Below the pieces are notes generated by a model. The model had not been told where the DNA came from, searched no databases, and worked only from the letters and a program-made list of their open reading frames with translations. A DNA stretch of 29,166 nucleotides, taken from an uncultured archaeon. GTDB lineage: Archaea; Iainarchaeota; Iainarchaeia; Iainarchaeales; GCA-2688035. Location of the stretch: the NCBI GenBank assembly GCA_964354805.1, contig CAYHBD010000033.1, positions 1 through 29,166 of the forward strand. The letters run 5' to 3'. Below are positions 23,069 through 29,022 of the stretch, piece after piece (position 1 is the stretch's first letter; each line of letters starts with the position of its first letter). Position numbers and translations under genes: made by a program.

Positions 23069-25411
23069 ATGCGCAAGCTTGTTTGCCTGTTCCTCTTGTT
23101 GCTTTTTTCTGCAAGCGTTGCAGCAGTAATAGAGAAGGATTCGCTTAAGATTTTTGCAGTAACAGAACAGGGCAATGCACTAAGCGCTGATTTGACCCTG
23201 GAAATAAAGCCAGGCAGCGGAAATGTTTGGAGCAGTGTCGAGCCATTGGTCGGCACATCAACCCAGACAACAGAGAAGCTTGCTGTCCAGATTGCGAAAA
23301 ATTACAGCAAGGAAGTTGGCAGCTTTGATTATTTTTTTGGCATTAAAAGCGATGCCTCGCTGGTTGAGGGGCCGAGCGCAGGCGCAGCAATGACTCTGCT
23401 TACAATAAGCATGCTGCAGGACAGGAAAGTTCCGGATTATGTCGGCCTGACAGGAACCATTACGCCGGATGGGAGTGTTGGCAGCGTTGGCGGGGTTTTT
23501 GAGAAAAGCAAGGAGGCGGCAAAGATCGGGATGAAGCTTTTTATGATTCCTGCCGGCGAAGCAAAGCAGACAGTGAAATTACCGGAAGGAGTTAAGTCCA
23601 TAAATCTGAGTTCCTATGCAAAAGAGCAGTGGAGCCTGCTGGTTGTGGAAGTAAAAGACATTGATGATGTGCTTCACTTTGCTTTTGCCGACCTTGAATC
23701 AATTGACGTGAATGCTGAGGAAACTGTTTTGCCTGATTTTGTTCCGAATGCAATTTCCTTTAACCGGCAGTTGCAGCCAATGGATTCAATTGTAAGGAAA
23801 TTTATTGCTGAAGCTGATGAAGGAATAAACGGCGCTAGAAGCGCTTTAAGCGGAACTTTGCTGAACGATCCTGCAGTTGTTGATGTTTTGCTGCAGCAGC
23901 TGAGCAGCAGCGAAAAAATGCTTGCCGAGGCAAAAATTCTGGCTGACCAGAACTATTTGTACAGCGCAGGCAATGATGCTTTCCTTTCAATTGTTTACAG
24001 TGCTTTTGTGCGCGATATTGCCGATGAGCCGCAATTGATTAACCCAACATCGACATCGCTTGATTCAAAGGCAGGCGAATTAAGCAGGCAAATTAACAGC
24101 CTTGCTTTTGATTTGAACAGGTTCATTGCCATTGACCAATTCGAGTGGCATGTTGCAGCAAAGCAGCGCTTAAGCTGGGCAAAGCTGAATATTGACAAGC
24201 TGCTTGCAAAGGATGAAATCATTATAACAATTGACGGCAGTGCAATTGATGAGCAGCGCTTGAGCGATTTGCTGGATTACCAGTTTGCTGTTGCATGGTA
24301 TAATGCAGCAGAGGATTTCTTTGATATAACAAAAAGCAGTACAAAAAGAATTCAGGCTGACAGGCATTTTGCCGATGCTGTTGAGAGCAATATTGCTGCA
24401 GCGGAAAAAAACCTGGCAGAATTGCCTGTTGCTGACACAGAGGATATTGTCAGGCGCTTGGATGCGTCAAAGCTTGAAAAAGAGCAGGGCTGGTTTGAGG
24501 CGGCCTTGTTTGATTCGGCTTCCGCCCTGGGTTTAACAGATGCCCAGCTTTTAATCAAAGGCAAGAGCCTGGATGAATTAAGGGCAGAACTGGAGCAGAA
24601 AATCAGCGAATTGGAAGTGAAGATGCATGAAAGCAATCAGAAATTTGTCTGGGCTTCGCTTTACCTTGACCATGCACGCTTTTTTTTGCAGAGCGCTGAC
24701 TTCTATTTGCAGAACGGCCAGAGCAGCAGGGCAGTTGAAAGCGCAGGCAGTGGCATTGCCCTGGCTTTCATGGCTGAAAGCGCTTTTGATTCTGCTGAGC
24801 AGGCAGGGCAATATTTCGCTACGCTGCCAGAATCAGCCTTTTTGCCAGGGCCGTTCATTGAGCCTTTTGATGCATCAAAGCTTTACCCTTTCATTGCACT
24901 TTTCATTGTTTTGGGCGCAGTGGTTGCCTTGATTCTGCTGTTCGCTGTTTTAAGCACCAGGGTAAGCCGGCTTAGGCATGCCTCGCTCAAAGGTGAAATA
25001 AGCAGAATCAGGTTCGAGCAGAAAAGGCTGCATAGAATGCTTTCAGCAGGGCAAATAAGCGGGGAGCGGTGCAAGAAACTTGATTCGCTTTACCAGAAGC
25101 GCCTGCGGGAATTGCTTGATGAAAGCGAGCAGTTGAGCAGCACCTTTGTCGAACTGGATTTGAGCAAAAGCAAATTGTTTGCTTTTGAGAGAACGGTGAA
25201 AAGGCTCAAGCAGCAGTCCAGGAAAGGCGAAATAACAAAGAAAGATTTCACTGCAACAATGCAATTCTGCGAGAAGAGAATCAACGCACTTACGAAAGAG
25301 ATAAGCGCAGAAATACAGCGCCTGCAGCTGGAAAAAAAAGCAATCAAAAAAAGCGTTGCTGTTACGGAAAAGGAAAACAGCGGAATACGGAAAGGAAAAA
25401 TAAAAGAATAA
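23069..25411 (+). CDS. Membrane-anchored Lon-like S16 serine protease without AAA+ domain (COG1750-like)
   Basis: Signal peptide; VEGPSAGAAM (Ser) and GGVFEK (Lys) dyad; long helical region; TM helix; basic C-terminal coiled coil. Confidence 0.88.
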   Translation: MRKLVCLFLLLLFSASVAAVIEKDSLKIFAVTEQGNALSADLTLEIKPGSGNVWSSVEPLVGTSTQTTEKLAVQIAKNYSKEVGSFDYFFGIKSDASLVEGPSAGAAMTLLTISMLQDRKVPDYVGLTGTITPDGSVGSVGGVFEKSKEAAKIGMKLFMIPAGEAKQTVKLPEGVKSINLSSYAKEQWSLLVVEVKDIDDVLHFAFADLESIDVNAEETVLPDFVPNAISFNRQLQPMDSIVRKFIAEADEGINGARSALSGTLLNDPAVVDVLLQQLSSSEKMLAEAKILADQNYLYSAGNDAFLSIVYSAFVRDIADEPQLINPTSTSLDSKAGELSRQINSLAFDLNRFIAIDQFEWHVAAKQRLSWAKLNIDKLLAKDEIIITIDGSAIDEQRLSDLLDYQFAVAWYNAAEDFFDITKSSTKRIQADRHFADAVESNIAAAEKNLAELPVADTEDIVRRLDASKLEKEQGWFEAALFDSASALGLTDAQLLIKGKSLDELRAELEQKISELEVKMHESNQKFVWASLYLDHARFFLQSADFYLQNGQSSRAVESAGSGIALAFMAESAFDSAEQAGQYFATLPESAFLPGPFIEPFDASKLYPFIALFIVLGAVVALILLFAVLSTRVSRLRHASLKGEISRIRFEQKRLHRMLSAGQISGERCKKLDSLYQKRLRELLDESEQLSSTFVELDLSKSKLFAFERTVKRLKQQSRKGEITKKDFTATMQFCEKRINALTKEISAEIQRLQLEKKAIKKSVAVTEKENSGIRKGKIKE

Positions 25412-25503: not shown

Positions 25504-25971
25504 ATGATTGCTGAATGGCTGATGATTGAAAGGCTGCTGATCAGTGCTGTTATGGGCGGCCTGATTGGCGTTGAAAGGCAGATGCACGAAAAGCCCGCTG
25601 GCTTGAGAACCCATGTGCTTGTTTGCATGGGCGCAACCCTTTTCACTCTTCTCTCATTGTCTTTTTCCAACTCGGACGGATCAGCAGTTGATGTCAGTAG
25701 GGTTGCTGCAGGTGTTGTAACAGGAATCGGCTTTTTGGCTGCAGGCAGCATTTTCAGGGAAAAGGAAAGAGTCAGGGGCCTGACAACTGCAGCAGACCTT
25801 TGGGTTATTGCTGCAATCGGCCTGAGCATTGGCTTGGGCTATTACAGCGTTGCCGTTGTTGCAACAATTATTACTTTGATTATTTTAATGATAGGCAGGG
25901 TTTTTGATAATTATTTGGACAGAAAGGCAATGACCCTAGAGCAAAAAAACAAGCCGCCTTTTTTTAGCTGA
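25504..25971 (+). CDS. MgtC/SapB family membrane protein
   Basis: GGLIGVER..KPAGLRTH, RVAAGVVTGIGFLAAG, GLTTAA. Confidence 0.93.
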   Translation: MIAEWLMIERLLISAVMGGLIGVERQMHEKPAGLRTHVLVCMGATLFTLLSLSFSNSDGSAVDVSRVAAGVVTGIGFLAAGSIFREKERVRGLTTAADLWVIAAIGLSIGLGYYSVAVVATIITLIILMIGRVFDNYLDRKAMTLEQKNKPPFFS

Positions 25972-26047
25972 CTTCAAGCTGTTTTACCGTTGCCCTTGGC
26001 TAAAGTCGGCAGCAGTTCAGCTGACTTCAAGCTGTTTTACTGTTGCC
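25964..26047 (-). repeat. Tandem copy of the smc 3' end
   Basis: GCA ACA GTA AAA CAG CTT GAA GTC AGC TGA vs GCA ACG GTA AAA CAG CTT GAA GTC AGC TAA; offset 53. Confidence 0.92.
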
Positions 26048-29022
26048 TCGCCTTTCTCGATTTTTTCCCTCAGCTTTAATCCAATGACGCTGCTTTTGTC
26101 CTTGCTCACTGCCACGCCGATTATCTGGTCTGCTCCCTGGATCAGTGGATCGTTGTGGGTTATTGCAATGAACTGGCTTTGCTTGCTGACTTCCTTGATT
26201 ATTTTAACCAGCTTCATTGAATTCTCCTTGTCCAATGCTGCATCAGCCTCGTCAAAAATATAGAATGGCGCAGGCTCGTACAATTGGATTGCGAAAAGGA
26301 AAGCAAGCGCTGTAAGGGTTTTCTCACCGCCAGACATTGAATCAATGTTTTTGATGTTCTCTCCCTTGTGCTTTGCCTCAATTAACAAGCCTGCTTCAAG
26401 CGGTTCCTCTGGCTTGCTCAGGCTCAATCTGCCTTCCCCTGCAAACAGGTTCCTGAACATCTCGCCGAAATTCCTGTTCAATGCATCAAAGCACTGCATG
26501 AAAATGTTCTTCCTTTTCACATCAATCTTTTCAATCATTTCCAATACGGCAAGCCTTTCTTTGTCCAGCAGGGCAACCTTCTCCCTAACATCCTTGACCT
26601 CTGCAGCCAGCTGCTCGAAAGATTCAATGGCTTTCAGGTTAATTGCGCCCATTTCGCTGATTTTTTTGTCAATTTCATTAATCCTGGGCTGCAGCGCGTG
26701 CCAGTCTGCTTTAGCCAGCTTGAGCACATCAGTAAACTGCTTTGCCTCCTCCTGCAAATCAGCCAGCCTAACCTGCATTTTGCTTTTCTCAATCTGCAGG
26801 TTGTTTTCATCCATCTGGGCCTGCCTCAGCTTCCGCTCCTGTTTTTTCGCCCTGAGCAGCAATTCCTCGATTCTCTCTTCCATCGCATCCCTTTCGGCTG
26901 CTGCTTTTTTGTTCCCTTTCTCAACCTTGTTCAGTTCATCCTCCAATTCATTGATTTTCGCGTCAGCGTGCTGCAGCCTTTTCTTCGTTTCCTCTATTCC
27001 GGCGATTATTTCCCTGTTCTCTTTCTGCACTGCCTGCTGCAGCTGCATCAAACCATTCCTCTGCCTTGACAATTGTACGATTGTTTTTCCTTCAATTGCA
27101 GCCTTCTCCTGCTGCAGTGCATTCAGCTTCCCGTGCAATTCAATCTCTTTCTCGCTGATTTCCTGCAATTCATTCACTGCAGCAGCATCGCTCAACCTGC
27201 GCCTCTGGGCTGCAATCTGGTTCAGTTCTGCCTGCTTTGCATTTGCCTCTGATTCAAGCAGCACAATCTCAGCTGTTTTCTTCTCAACACCTGCACCCTG
27301 CACGCCTGCCTTTGCAGCCGAGATTTTTTCCATGCTCTCTTTTAACTGCGCCTTCAATTCATCAAAATCCCTTAACTGATACAGCAATTCCCTTTCCTTT
27401 TCAGCAGCTTCCCTCAGCTCCCGCTCTTTTTTCAATGCATCAGCCTTCTTTTCAGCTGCTGCACTTTCCCTTTCAAGCATCTTCTTCAATTCTGCTTCCT
27501 TGCTTTTAATCAGCTGCAGCCTTTTTTCTTTCCTCAGCTCGCTTTCGCAAACAGGGCACAGAGCGCTGCTTTTGTTCAATAAGCCGATTGTTTCATTCAG
27601 GTTCTTTTTCCCTAGTTCAACTGCCTTTATCTCATGCAGCAGCCGCTCATGCTGCTGCTCTGCAACAGCAATCTTTTCAGCCAGCTTTCCGAATTTTCTC
27701 TGCAGCACCTGCAGCAGTTCGCTGGCGTTCTGCTTTTCCGCAAGCTTTTCCTCAATTCTTTTCTGCATTGCAGCCAGTTCCTGCAATTGCTTTCCCTGCA
27801 ATGCAATCCCGTGCTGCATTACCCGCAATTCGCTTACTGCCTTCACTCTTTTCTCGTTCAGTTCGCGCATTGCAGCATTCAATTGCTGCTCCTTTGAATG
27901 AATTTCCTGCAGCTCGGCAGCTTTCCCCTGCTGGCTCGACTGCAATTTTGCCTTCCTCTGCTGCAAATCGGCAACCTGCTGCTGTAAAGGGGGCAATTCC
28001 TCCATTATCTGCTTTACCCTGCTTTTTTCACTGTCAGTTTCCTTTGCAATAGCGTTTGCTTCAGCCTCTGCCTCTTCAACCCTCCTGTTGTTCCTTGCAA
28101 TCAGGCCTTTGTTTCCCTCAATCCTTTCAACCAGCTGGCTTTTCTCGCTTTTAGCTTCCTCGAGCTTTGAGCCAATTGTTGAATAAATCTTTTCGCTCGC
28201 GCTCAGCAGCTCATCTCCGAGGCGCTTTGCCTCCTGCCTTAATTTTTCAGTTTCAGCATTTGCCTGGTCGAGCTGCTGCTGCTCTTCGTTCTGCTGCTTT
28301 TCAAGCAATGCAAGCCCTTGATTTGTTTCAAGCATGCCCTTGTTTATTTCATCAATCTCATGCGCCAGCAATGTTGCCTTTGCCTGCTTCCTTTCCAGCT
28401 CAAGTTGCTTGAACAAAACAGCCGCTTCCCTTTCATGCTGCAGTTCCTGCAGGTAGTTCTCCCTTTCCTGCATGACAATGCCTGCATCCCTGAGCTTTAT
28501 GTCAACCTTCTCCAGATTTTTCAGCGCCTCTTCTTTCTTCAAATCAAACTCCTGCAATCCGGCAAGCTCGTCAACAATCTGCCTTCTCTCCAATGCATTC
28601 ATTTCAACAATCCTTGTTACATCGCCTTGCACAACAATGTTGTGCCCATCAGGCTTCACCCCCAATTCAAGCAGAAGCGAGCTTATTTCCCCCAGTGTTT
28701 TCCTCTGCCCATCCAGCCTGTAAACACATTTTCCCTGCTTGTCAATAAGCCTTTCAATAACATAATCCTTGTGGTCGTGCTTTAACGCCAGCTCTACCTT
28801 TGCATAGTTCTCAACAGCGCTGTTGTTCACCAATTCGCTTAATCTGCCTGCCCTCAAAGCCTTCAAGCTAGTAATGCCCATTGCGAAAAGCAGCGCATCC
28901 AGAATATTGCTCTTGCCGCTCCCGTTGCCGCCGACAATGCAGGTAAAGCCATTGCTCAGGGGAATGTCCGCTTTCTTAAAGCTCTTGAAGTTTCGCAAAA
29001 CAAGGCGATGCAGCTTGACCAT
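26017..29022 (-). CDS. smc: Chromosome segregation ATPase Smc with central CPVC zinc-hook motif (1001 aa)
   Basis: NFKSF, Walker A GGNGSGKSN, VVQGDV Q-loop, MSGGEKTL, PAPFYIFDEADAALD, QFIAITH; SD GGTGA before ATG 29022. Confidence 0.9.
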   Translation of the reverse strand: MVKLHRLVLRNFKSFKKADIPLSNGFTCIVGGNGSGKSNILDALLFAMGITSLKALRAGRLSELVNNSAVENYAKVELALKHDHKDYVIERLIDKQGKCVYRLDGQRKTLGEISSLLLELGVKPDGHNIVVQGDVTRIVEMNALERRQIVDELAGLQEFDLKKEEALKNLEKVDIKLRDAGIVMQERENYLQELQHEREAAVLFKQLELERKQAKATLLAHEIDEINKGMLETNQGLALLEKQQNEEQQQLDQANAETEKLRQEAKRLGDELLSASEKIYSTIGSKLEEAKSEKSQLVERIEGNKGLIARNNRRVEEAEAEANAIAKETDSEKSRVKQIMEELPPLQQQVADLQQRKAKLQSSQQGKAAELQEIHSKEQQLNAAMRELNEKRVKAVSELRVMQHGIALQGKQLQELAAMQKRIEEKLAEKQNASELLQVLQRKFGKLAEKIAVAEQQHERLLHEIKAVELGKKNLNETIGLLNKSSALCPVCESELRKEKRLQLIKSKEAELKKMLERESAAAEKKADALKKERELREAAEKERELLYQLRDFDELKAQLKESMEKISAAKAGVQGAGVEKKTAEIVLLESEANAKQAELNQIAAQRRRLSDAAAVNELQEISEKEIELHGKLNALQQEKAAIEGKTIVQLSRQRNGLMQLQQAVQKENREIIAGIEETKKRLQHADAKINELEDELNKVEKGNKKAAAERDAMEERIEELLLRAKKQERKLRQAQMDENNLQIEKSKMQVRLADLQEEAKQFTDVLKLAKADWHALQPRINEIDKKISEMGAINLKAIESFEQLAAEVKDVREKVALLDKERLAVLEMIEKIDVKRKNIFMQCFDALNRNFGEMFRNLFAGEGRLSLSKPEEPLEAGLLIEAKHKGENIKNIDSMSGGEKTLTALAFLFAIQLYEPAPFYIFDEADAALDKENSMKLVKIIKEVSKQSQFIAITHNDPLIQGADQIIGVAVSKDKSSVIGLKLREKIEKGEATVKQLEVS

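What the first reader, a model, noticed from the sequence alone, without database searches (positions are those of the whole stretch)
26017..29022. Condensin-type Smc heads joined by a Rad50-style zinc hook instead of a hinge
Head motifs are those of canonical Smc (LRAGRLSELV, QGDVTRIVEM..ERRQI, GAINLKAIE, PAPFYIFDE.DAALD). The 1001-aa chain is about 170 aa shorter than typical Smc, shows no Gly-rich hinge motif, and has CPVCESEL at residues 489-496 (CPVC at 27547-27558) at the coiled-coil midpoint. Known: CxxC hooks dimerise Rad50/SbcC, whereas Smc-ScpAB uses a hinge. Inference: a hinge-to-hook chimera. No scpA/scpB or mre11 is adjacent in the window.
Basis: partly seen in the sequence, partly recalled or inferred. 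Interest (0 to 1): 0.75.

Follow-up and report, generated by a model that had tools for sequence, protein, structure and literature searches.

The report
Natural Smc with a zinc hook
This tiny DPANN archaeon (Iainarchaeota) has a normal chromosome-folding Smc ATPase with full-length arms, but the hinge that usually joins two Smc molecules is replaced by the short two-cysteine zinc hook of the repair protein Rad50. I found this swap described only as an engineered protein.

Summary
Window 26017-29022 (-) encodes a 1001-aa protein with complete Smc-type heads. They match Pyrococcus Smc at 1.5e-96 and Rad50 at only ~1e-13. It has no SMC_hinge and carries CPVC at residues 489-492 (27547-27558).

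The arms align collinearly with a hinge-bearing Smc of the same class. Residues 469-510 stand where that protein has 218 residues including the hinge.

C489, P490 and C492 are the only invariant columns between residues 170 and 792 in 38 orthologues. A profile of the apex hits the P. furiosus Rad50 hook structures (6.6e-12; next hit 0.045) and the same order's Rad50 hooks (hhalign 97%).

The genome separately encodes ScpA, ScpB, Rad50 and an Mre11-like protein, and has no hinge anywhere. It is 88.5% complete.

The design holds across most of the order. The hinge is nearly absent there but present in sister orders. Some families have lost the cysteines as well.

Most likely this is an Smc-ScpAB condensin dimerised by an interchain zinc site. 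Zinc binding and dimerisation are inferred, not shown.

No paper I found describes a natural hook-bearing Smc. The engineered B. subtilis Smc(Zh) is the precedent. This scan has already noted the same design in at least 24 other genomes.

The parts
26017..29022 (-). smc gene, 1001 codons plus stop: hinge-less, hook-bearing Smc
28555..29022 (-). N-terminal half of the ATPase head (residues 1-156), with Walker A GGNGSGKSN at 28906-28932, R57 and Q-loop Q132
   Evidence: sequence; invariant columns; AF2 secondary structure
27577..28554 (-). Outgoing coiled-coil arm (residues 157-482), with helix breaks at 361-367 and 445-446
   Evidence: AF2 model, mean pLDDT 78; collinear with the N-arm of a hinge-bearing Smc
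27493..27618 (-). Apex module (residues 469-510) standing where a same-class Smc has 218 residues including the hinge
   Evidence: BLASTP: P0001 1-468 aligns with 6-454 and 511-993 with 673-1162 of the 1168-aa Smc in L058; its hinge is at 519-635
27547..27558 (-). CPVC (C489 P490 V491 C492), the putative zinc-hook cysteines
   Evidence: the only invariant columns between residues 170 and 792 in 38 orthologues; aligned in register with the CPVC of P. furiosus Rad50 and of the same order's Rad50
27532..27576 (-). Non-helical hook loop (residues 483-497) at the turn of the coiled coil
   Evidence: AF2 full-length model and apex-only model, pLDDT 92
26443..27531 (-). Returning coiled-coil arm and joint (residues 498-860), with breaks at 550-552, 574-576, 613-616 and 760-773
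   Evidence: collinear with the C-arm of a hinge-bearing Smc
26020..26442 (-). C-terminal half of the ATPase head (residues 861-1001), with signature SGGEK at 26320-26334, Walker B FYIFDE at 26248-26265 and H956

Best explanation
This is the single Smc of the organism's Smc-ScpAB condensin. It has ATPase-competent Smc heads and full-length arms of about 325-335 residues. Its globular hinge and hinge-proximal coils have been replaced by a roughly 40-residue Rad50-type hook.

Two protomers are proposed to be joined at the arm tips by one Zn2+ ion bound tetrahedrally by the two CPxC pairs, as in Rad50. ScpA and ScpB would close the ring at the heads, so the complex would load on and extrude or entrap DNA as hinge-type Smc-ScpAB does.

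Shown here: the architecture, the absence of a hinge, conservation of the motif and of arm length, Rad50-hook likeness, and the presence of the partner genes. Inferred: zinc binding, dimerisation through the hook, ScpAB binding and chromosomal function.
For: Heads:
- PDB best hits are Pyrococcus Smc heads (1.5e-96 to 1e-82); Rad50 reaches only ~1e-13.
- TIGR02169 scores 550 bits in two stretches that skip the profile's hinge part; Rad50 scores 134 bits.
- Foldseek of the full model hits SMC proteins (4i99 TMt 0.87, 5xns 0.79).
- Walker A, Q-loop, signature, Walker B and the switch His are invariant.

No hinge:
- None in the protein, in 0 of 38 orthologues, or in the genome.
- In a 201-genome sample of the phylum only 19 have a hinge. 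Two of those are in this order; the rest are in other orders of the class, with 1009-1182-aa Smc.

Hook:
- CPxC is invariant in 30 of 30 loci and in all ~1000-aa representatives.
- 16 of 38 orthologues match Pfam Rad50_zn_hook at E<=0.01, and two relatives exceed its cut-off.
- The apex profile hits 1l8d at 6.6e-12 and 6zff at 3.3e-11; the next hit is 0.045.
- hhalign against the order's own Rad50 apexes gives 97.3%, E 1.8e-11, in register; coiled-coil controls score 24-28 against 68.
- The apex AF2 model (pLDDT 92) has 1l8d as its top match by Foldseek and by VIA-align (Z 12.2, rmsd 2.5 A over 103 of 103 residues).

Arms:
- They are collinear with a hinge-type Smc.
- Q-loop-to-hook is 355-358 aa in 47 of 55 hook Smc, and hook-to-GAIN is 301-303 aa in 47.

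Partners:
- ScpA, ScpB (above the TIGR00281 cut-off), a separate 690-aa Rad50 with its own CPIC hook, and an Mre11-like protein lie elsewhere in the genome.
- ScpA and ScpB are each found in 37 of 37 high-quality genomes of the order.

Precedent: B. subtilis Smc with the Pfu Rad50 hook in place of the hinge supports normal growth (PMC5344682). Hook and hinge are also reported as interchangeable (title of PMC6969161).
Against: - No biochemical evidence exists for zinc binding or for dimerisation. I could fold only monomers.
- This protein's own Pfam hook score is below the gathering cut-off (15.6-22.1 against 24.3 bits).
- Structural similarity of a helical hairpin is not discriminating: many unrelated hairpins lie within 1 Z unit of 1l8d.
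- Several families of the same order have Smc with neither hinge nor CxxC. A linked apex may therefore not be essential, which weakens the inference that the hook is the dimerisation device.
- The genome is 88.5% complete, so a second, hinge-bearing Smc cannot be strictly excluded.
Confidence: 0.8

Rival explanations
1. The hook is real but works as in Rad50 tethering. It would link different Smc-ScpAB complexes, or open and close reversibly, rather than being the constitutive joint within one dimer. The dimer itself would be held by arm-arm contacts, head engagement and the kleisin.
For: Relatives with neither hinge nor cysteines still keep heads, arms, ScpA and ScpB. This suggests the dimer can exist without a linked apex.
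Against: The Rad50 hook is reported as a constitutive dimerisation module (title and abstract of PMC6969161). The engineered Smc(Zh) showed near-normal arm-arm association (PMC5344682). The tightly conserved arm length fits a fixed rod.
Confidence: 0.1
2. The CPxC does not bridge chains. It would cap or stabilise the hairpin turn, possibly as a redox or metal site within one chain. The resemblance to Rad50 would be convergent.
For: With CPxC masked, the flanks score only 32 (65%) against Rad50 flanks, versus 24-28 for controls. The fold match is non-specific. The cysteines were lost repeatedly in relatives.
Against: Two Cys per chain cannot complete a tetrahedral site alone. Beyond CPxC, L482 and L496 are conserved and align with the Rad50 hook. 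The x residue is V, T, I or L in both these Smc and the same order's Rad50. The in-register profile hit at 1e-11 is far above the background of 0.045.
Confidence: 0.07
3. It is not the condensin Smc but an SMC-like paralogue (Rad50, ASRP/ClsN/Sph or arcadin-4 type) with another role.
For: It has a central CxxC like those families (PMC9389158) and falls below the TIGR02169 cut-off.
Against: SMC_prok_A scores 550 bits against Rad50 134, ASRP 101 and Rkd4 39. The heads nest among hinge-type Smc in the trees. No other Smc candidate exists in the genome, while a separate Rad50 does. The arms are collinear with canonical Smc.
Confidence: 0.02
4. It is an assembly or gene-calling artefact, meaning an internal deletion of the hinge in a MAG.
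For: The source is a fragmented MAG, and the gene lies 144 bp from the contig end.
Against: The same architecture, with near-identical arm lengths, occurs in well over a hundred independently assembled genomes. These include closed or near-closed ones such as G037 and G038.
Confidence: 0.01

Closest known systems
Prokaryotic/archaeal Smc of Smc-ScpAB (TIGR02169 SMC_prok_A; Pyrococcus Smc, PDB 5xei, 5xns, 4i99)
   Same: Head sequence and fold, all ATPase motifs, the joint, roughly 330-residue antiparallel arms collinear with a same-class Smc, and ScpA and ScpB genes in the genome.
   Different: No SMC_hinge domain. A 42-residue segment with CPVC replaces 218 residues. The protein is about 170 aa shorter and scores below the equivalog cut-off.
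Engineered Smc(Zh): B. subtilis Smc with the P. furiosus Rad50 zinc hook in place of the hinge (Burmann et al. 2017, PMC5344682)
   Same: The same architecture: Smc heads and arms plus a Rad50-type hook. Arm length is constrained in both.
   Different: That protein is a laboratory construct in a bacterium. This one is natural, archaeal and conserved across most of an order.
Rad50/SbcC zinc hook (Pfam PF04423; PDB 1l8d, 6zff, 5gox)
   Same: CPxC at the coiled-coil apex with conserved flanking leucines. Profile matches are at 1e-11, and 1l8d is the top structural match.
   Different: The heads are Smc-type, not Rad50-type. The arms are longer than in this order's 690-aa Rad50. There is no adjacent mre11, and the genome has its own separate Rad50.
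Archaea-specific SMC-related proteins (ASRP: ClsN, Sph1/2; NF045487; PMC9389158)
   Same: Archaeal SMC-superfamily proteins with a central zinc-hook motif and no hinge.
   Different: The ASRP model is about 590 positions long and scores only 101 bits here (cut-off 300). This protein is 1001 aa and its heads are orthologous to canonical Smc.
'Hinge-less' SMC of marine Actinobacteria (Sussfeld et al. 2025, PMC12153180)
   Same: SMC-type heads and coiled coil without a hinge domain.
   Different: Those are bacterial and explicitly lack the CXXC motif. They resemble the cysteine-free relatives seen in this order more than this protein.

Membership tests
Prokaryotic Smc (Smc-ScpAB condensin) | SMC-type ABC ATPase head with Walker A, Q-loop, signature motif, Walker B and switch His | tested here: met
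   All motifs are present and invariant. SMC_N scores 2.2e-48. Pyrococcus Smc heads match at 1.5e-96. The fold matches 4i99 with TMt 0.87.
Prokaryotic Smc (Smc-ScpAB condensin) | Heads orthologous to Smc rather than to Rad50, ASRP or RecN | tested here: met
   NCBIfam ranking. In the head trees Rad50 is a 100%-supported outgroup and the nearest outside rows are hinge-type Smc of the same class, with SH-aLRT 85-90 on quick trees only.
Prokaryotic Smc (Smc-ScpAB condensin) | Long antiparallel coiled-coil arms of about 340 residues | tested here: met
   AF2 helices span 157-482 and 498-759 onwards. The arms are collinear with an 1168-aa Smc. Arm length is conserved.
Prokaryotic Smc (Smc-ScpAB condensin) | Central globular hinge dimerisation domain (Pfam PF06470) | tested here: not met
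   No hit in the protein, in 0 of 38 orthologues, or in the whole genome. The control search found the hinge in 10 reference genomes.
Prokaryotic Smc (Smc-ScpAB condensin) | Score above the TIGR02169 equivalog cut-off | tested here: not met
   550.2 bits against a cut-off of 729.4. The shortfall corresponds to the missing hinge part of the profile.
Prokaryotic Smc (Smc-ScpAB condensin) | Kleisin ScpA and kite ScpB encoded in the genome | tested here: met
   ScpA on C28 and ScpB on C29. Each is found in 37 of 37 high-quality genomes of the order.
Prokaryotic Smc (Smc-ScpAB condensin) | Binds ScpAB and organises or segregates the chromosome | not testable with these tools
   Needs biochemistry or genetics.
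Rad50/SbcC | CxxC zinc hook at the coiled-coil apex (PF04423) | tested here: inconclusive
   The motif and its position are present. This protein scores 15.6-22.1 bits against a cut-off of 24.3. 16 of 38 orthologues match at E<=0.01, and two relatives exceed the cut-off (29.4 and 30.7 bits). The family profile hits 1l8d at 6.6e-12.
Rad50/SbcC | Rad50-type head and Mre11/SbcD partnership | tested here: not met
   Rad50 models score at most 134 bits against cut-offs of 700 or more. Rad50 is the outgroup in the trees. A separate Rad50 lies on C16 and the Mre11-like gene on C28.
Rad50/SbcC | Zinc-dependent dimerisation through four cysteines from two chains | not testable with these tools
   Only single-chain prediction was available. 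Metal analysis and oligomer measurements are needed.
ASRP (ClsN/Sph) | Match to NF045487 above its cut-off; about 590-aa architecture | tested here: not met
   101 bits against a cut-off of 300; the protein is 1001 aa.

The most novel reading that the evidence does not exclude
In Iainarchaeales the apex of Smc is evolutionarily fluid. A hinge is kept in sister orders. It was replaced by a Rad50-type hook near the base of the order, and the hook cysteines were then lost, probably several times, leaving a bare helical hairpin. Throughout, the heads, arm length (fixed to within 1-2 residues, or shortened by one ~91-99-aa superhelical period), ScpA and ScpB are retained. If so, neither the hinge nor any linked apex is required for Smc-ScpAB function. 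This lineage would then offer a natural allelic series for testing what the hinge does.
Probability: 0.35. Interest if true: 0.85.

Novelty: new variant of a known kind. Interest (0 to 1): 0.72.

Why it matters
The hinge is treated as a defining SMC domain. It has been proposed as a DNA-binding site, a DNA entry gate and a regulator of arm opening.

A lineage in which the sole Smc has run for a long evolutionary time on a Rad50-type hook says that the fold of the dimerisation domain is not essential. In some branches there seems to be no apex device at all. What selection holds constant is the arm and its length. This is the natural counterpart of the Bacillus Smc(Zh) experiment.

It provides ready-made proteins for testing hinge function: hook, no-hook and hinge versions with orthologous heads. 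It also shows that Pfam- and TIGRFAM-based annotation under-calls Smc. NCBI labels two relatives 'AAA family ATPase' and 'SMC family protein, partial'.

Tried and rejected
- Word-indexed homologue searches with the coiled-coil middle or the apex profile gave almost nothing useful: 1 and 9 hits. The exhaustive representative search and the genome searches were what worked.
- The search for related loci in genome contigs returned only one true orthologue, but that hit named the taxon.
- Foldseek and VIA-align on the apex put Rad50 hooks first. Unrelated helical hairpins lie within 1 Z unit, so I do not use fold similarity as evidence of homology.
- Masking CPxC to test whether the flanks alone look like Rad50 gave only a marginal, in-register excess: score 32 against 24-28. 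Acquisition from rad50 versus convergence stays open.
- The careful IQ-TREE run did not finish on one CPU after 443 s, so only quick trees with SH-aLRT support are reported.
- The protein atlas call failed.
- I could not obtain Pacearchaeota hook-Smc sequences, which earlier notes of this scan report. No hook form from outside the Iainarchaeales clade appeared among the 150 best representatives, though hinge-type Smc did. I did not test whether those hook Smc have an independent origin.
- Five literature searches found no natural hook-bearing canonical Smc. The library lacks most subscription journals.
Full report
**Observation**

The minus-strand ORF 26017-29022 encodes 1001 aa from ATG 29022. 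A GGTGA lies 8-12 nt upstream of that ATG, and orthologues start at the same MVKL/MIKL.

CPVC is at residues 489-492, which maps to 27547-27558. That is close to the midpoint: 488 residues before it and 509 after.

Pfam gives SMC_N across residues 4-976 (2.2e-48) and no SMC_hinge. It gives a weak Rad50_zn_hook match at 475-514 (15.6 bits; cut-off 24.3).

**What the heads are**

- NCBIfam ranks SMC_prok_A first at 550 bits, in two stretches. The C-terminal stretch maps residues 498-984 onto profile positions 680-1165, so the hinge part of the profile is skipped. Rad50 models reach at most 134 bits and ASRP 101.
- Against PDB sequences the best hits are Pyrococcus Smc heads (1.5e-96, 1.4e-87, 1e-82). 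Rad50 appears only at ~1e-13.
- In 38 aligned orthologues Walker A, R57, Q132, the signature S897/G899/E900, Walker B D924/E925 and H956 are invariant.
- The AF2 model (38-sequence alignment, mean pLDDT 78.4) matches SMC structures by Foldseek, with 4i99 at TMt 0.87 and 5xns at 0.79.

**What replaces the hinge**

BLASTP against an 1168-aa hinge-bearing Smc from another order of the same class (L058) aligns residues 1-468 with its 6-454, and 511-993 with its 673-1162. So 42 residues here stand where that protein has 218, including its Pfam hinge at 519-635.

AF2 predicts helices 157-482, a non-helical loop 483-497 carrying CPVC, then returning helices from 498. There is no globular domain. The apex folded alone gives the same helix-loop-helix at pLDDT 92.

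**Is the CPxC more than chance?**

The protein has five cysteines. In the 38-sequence alignment (28-95% identity to this protein), C489, P490 and C492 are the only invariant columns between residues 170 and 792. L482 is also more than 90% conserved, and so is L496 in the apex alignment. All 30 orthologous loci fetched from relatives carry one central CP[VTI]C.

**Is it Rad50-like?**

- A profile of the 141-residue apex from 32 genomes hits the P. furiosus Rad50 hook structures 1l8d (6.6e-12) and 6zff (3.3e-11). The cysteines and the flanking leucines are in register. The next hit is a keratin at 0.045.
- hhalign against the hooks of ten Rad50 proteins from the same order gives 97.3% probability, E 1.8e-11 and score 68, in register. 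Four non-apex arm segments score 24-28.
- With the four motif residues masked on both sides, the in-register score is 32 (65%). Most of the signal therefore lies in and next to the motif. Physical acquisition from rad50 is plausible but not shown.
- 16 of 38 orthologues match Pfam Rad50_zn_hook at E<=0.01, and none match SMC_hinge. Two relatives exceed the hook cut-off.
- Structurally, 1l8d is the top match by Foldseek and by VIA-align (Z 12.2, rmsd 2.5 A, 103 of 103 residues). Unrelated hairpins score within 1 Z unit, so this is consistent but not discriminating.

**Genome context**

The organism is a DPANN archaeon of the Iainarchaeota/Diapherotrites. The assembly is 1.38 Mb in 49 contigs and 88.5% complete.

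- It has no SMC_hinge anywhere and no second Smc.
- It has ScpA (C28, 291 aa) and ScpB (C29, 185 aa, above the TIGR00281 cut-off).
- It has a separate 690-aa Rad50 with its own CPIC hook (C16) and an Mre11-like protein (C28).
- The window neighbours are unrelated: ftsZ, spt5/nusG, L11, L1, L10, a Lon_C-domain protein and a convergent mgtC.

**Distribution**

- In 40 relatives, collinear orthologues of about 1000 aa occur in nearly all genomes of the family and in most other families of the order.
- Across 196 genomes of the order, the apex profile finds strong hits (E<1e-12) in Smc-length ORFs of about 985-1050 aa in most families.
- SMC_hinge is found in 19 of 201 genomes sampled from the phylum. 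Two are in this order. The rest are in other orders of the class, where Smc is 1009-1182 aa.
- ScpA and ScpB are each found in 37 of 37 high-quality genomes of the order.

**Head phylogeny**

I built two quick IQ-TREE trees on 361 head columns, one with LG+G4 and one with LG+C20 PMSF. The careful run did not finish.

- Rad50 is a 100%-supported outgroup on a long branch.
- The hook Smc nest inside Smc.
- Their nearest outside rows are the hinge-type Smc of the same class, with SH-aLRT 85-90, below the starred level of 95.

This fits vertical descent of the heads with a hinge-to-hook replacement near the base of the order.

**Arm length**

The distance from the Q-loop to the hook is 355-358 aa in 47 of the 55 hook Smc measured. 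The distance from the hook to the GAIN motif is 301-303 aa in 47. The arm sequences themselves are poorly conserved.

A short form, P0024 (807 aa), is 96 and 91 aa shorter in its two arms. That is about one period of the 91-99-aa pattern that Burmann et al. found to govern functional Smc arm lengths, including in their Smc(Zh) chimera (PMC5344682).

**Mechanism**

The most likely reading (about 0.8) is an Smc-ScpAB complex in which two Smc chains are joined at the arm tips by a zinc ion held by four cysteines, two from each chain. The heads and ScpAB work as usual.

The architecture, the conservation and the partner genes are shown. Zinc binding, dimerisation and ScpAB binding are inferred from the Rad50 hook and from the functional engineered Smc(Zh).

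**A complication**

Within the same order several families have Smc of 900-954 aa with orthologous heads and arms but neither hinge nor any CxxC. One example is G023, which is 99% complete. These forms are scattered among hook forms in the trees. The trees imply 8-9 changes, of which only 2-4 are forced by well-supported branches. A linked apex may therefore be dispensable in this lineage.

**Literature and earlier notes**

Five full-text searches found the engineered chimeras, the hook-bearing ASRP family and a 2025 report of hinge-less, CXXC-less SMC in marine Actinobacteria. They found no natural hook-bearing canonical Smc. The library omits most subscription journals.

Earlier notes of this scan report the same design in at least 24 other genomes. 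Twelve of those notes name Iainarchaeota, and others name Pacearchaeota. This is therefore a repeat sighting within the scan, on new DNA.

Noticed in passing
L049 (G023:C4), L051 (G027:C77), L052 (G039:C74); proteins P0009, P0014, P0019, P0029, P0030, P0033, P0034, P0036, P0043: Smc orthologues of 900-954 aa in the same order have neither a Pfam hinge nor any CxxC. The apex is a short, unconserved loop. G023 is 99% complete, has no other Smc, and keeps ScpA and ScpB. How these forms dimerise is unexplained.
   Followed up: partly
L053 (G024:C1:501800-505900), 1084-aa ORF: The Smc of family f3 has an apex insert of about 100 aa with no Pfam hinge hit and no CxxC. It sits on a long branch in the head tree. 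It may be a degenerate hinge.
   Followed up: no
G038:C1:429310-433914 (L043); proteins P0021 and P0156; also G087, G110 and G070: Some hook Smc are about 1540-1580 aa. The extra sequence splits the match at about residues 36-43, in or next to Walker A. P0156 (archaeon GW2011_AR10) carries precomputed homing-endonuclease (PF14528) and intein-splicing (PF14890) domains, so this looks like an intein.
   Followed up: partly
window 25964-26047: The last ~10 codons and the stop of smc are repeated 20 bp downstream. The only differences are one A/G change and TGA versus TAA. The distal copy abuts the convergent mgtC end. This was already noted by the scan as e1-5623907.
   Followed up: partly
hook Smc family; P0024, P0028, P0041, L050: Arm lengths are nearly fixed across the family: 355-358 aa (Q-loop to hook) and 301-303 aa (hook to GAIN), each in 47 of 55. 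The short hook forms total 772-831 aa. For P0024, the one measured, each arm is 91-96 aa shorter, about one coiled-coil superhelical period.
   Followed up: partly
G000:C28:45044-46288 (L073) and G000:C16:49600-51670 (L063): The Mre11-like gene (414 aa, best match to Mre11 models but below their cut-offs) is not adjacent to rad50. The two lie on different contigs.
   Followed up: partly
window 23069-25411 (+): A 780-aa protein has an N-terminal signal or transmembrane segment, a Lon_C proteolytic domain at residues 99-177, a later transmembrane segment and a long coiled-coil tail. It lies just downstream of the L10 gene.
   Followed up: no
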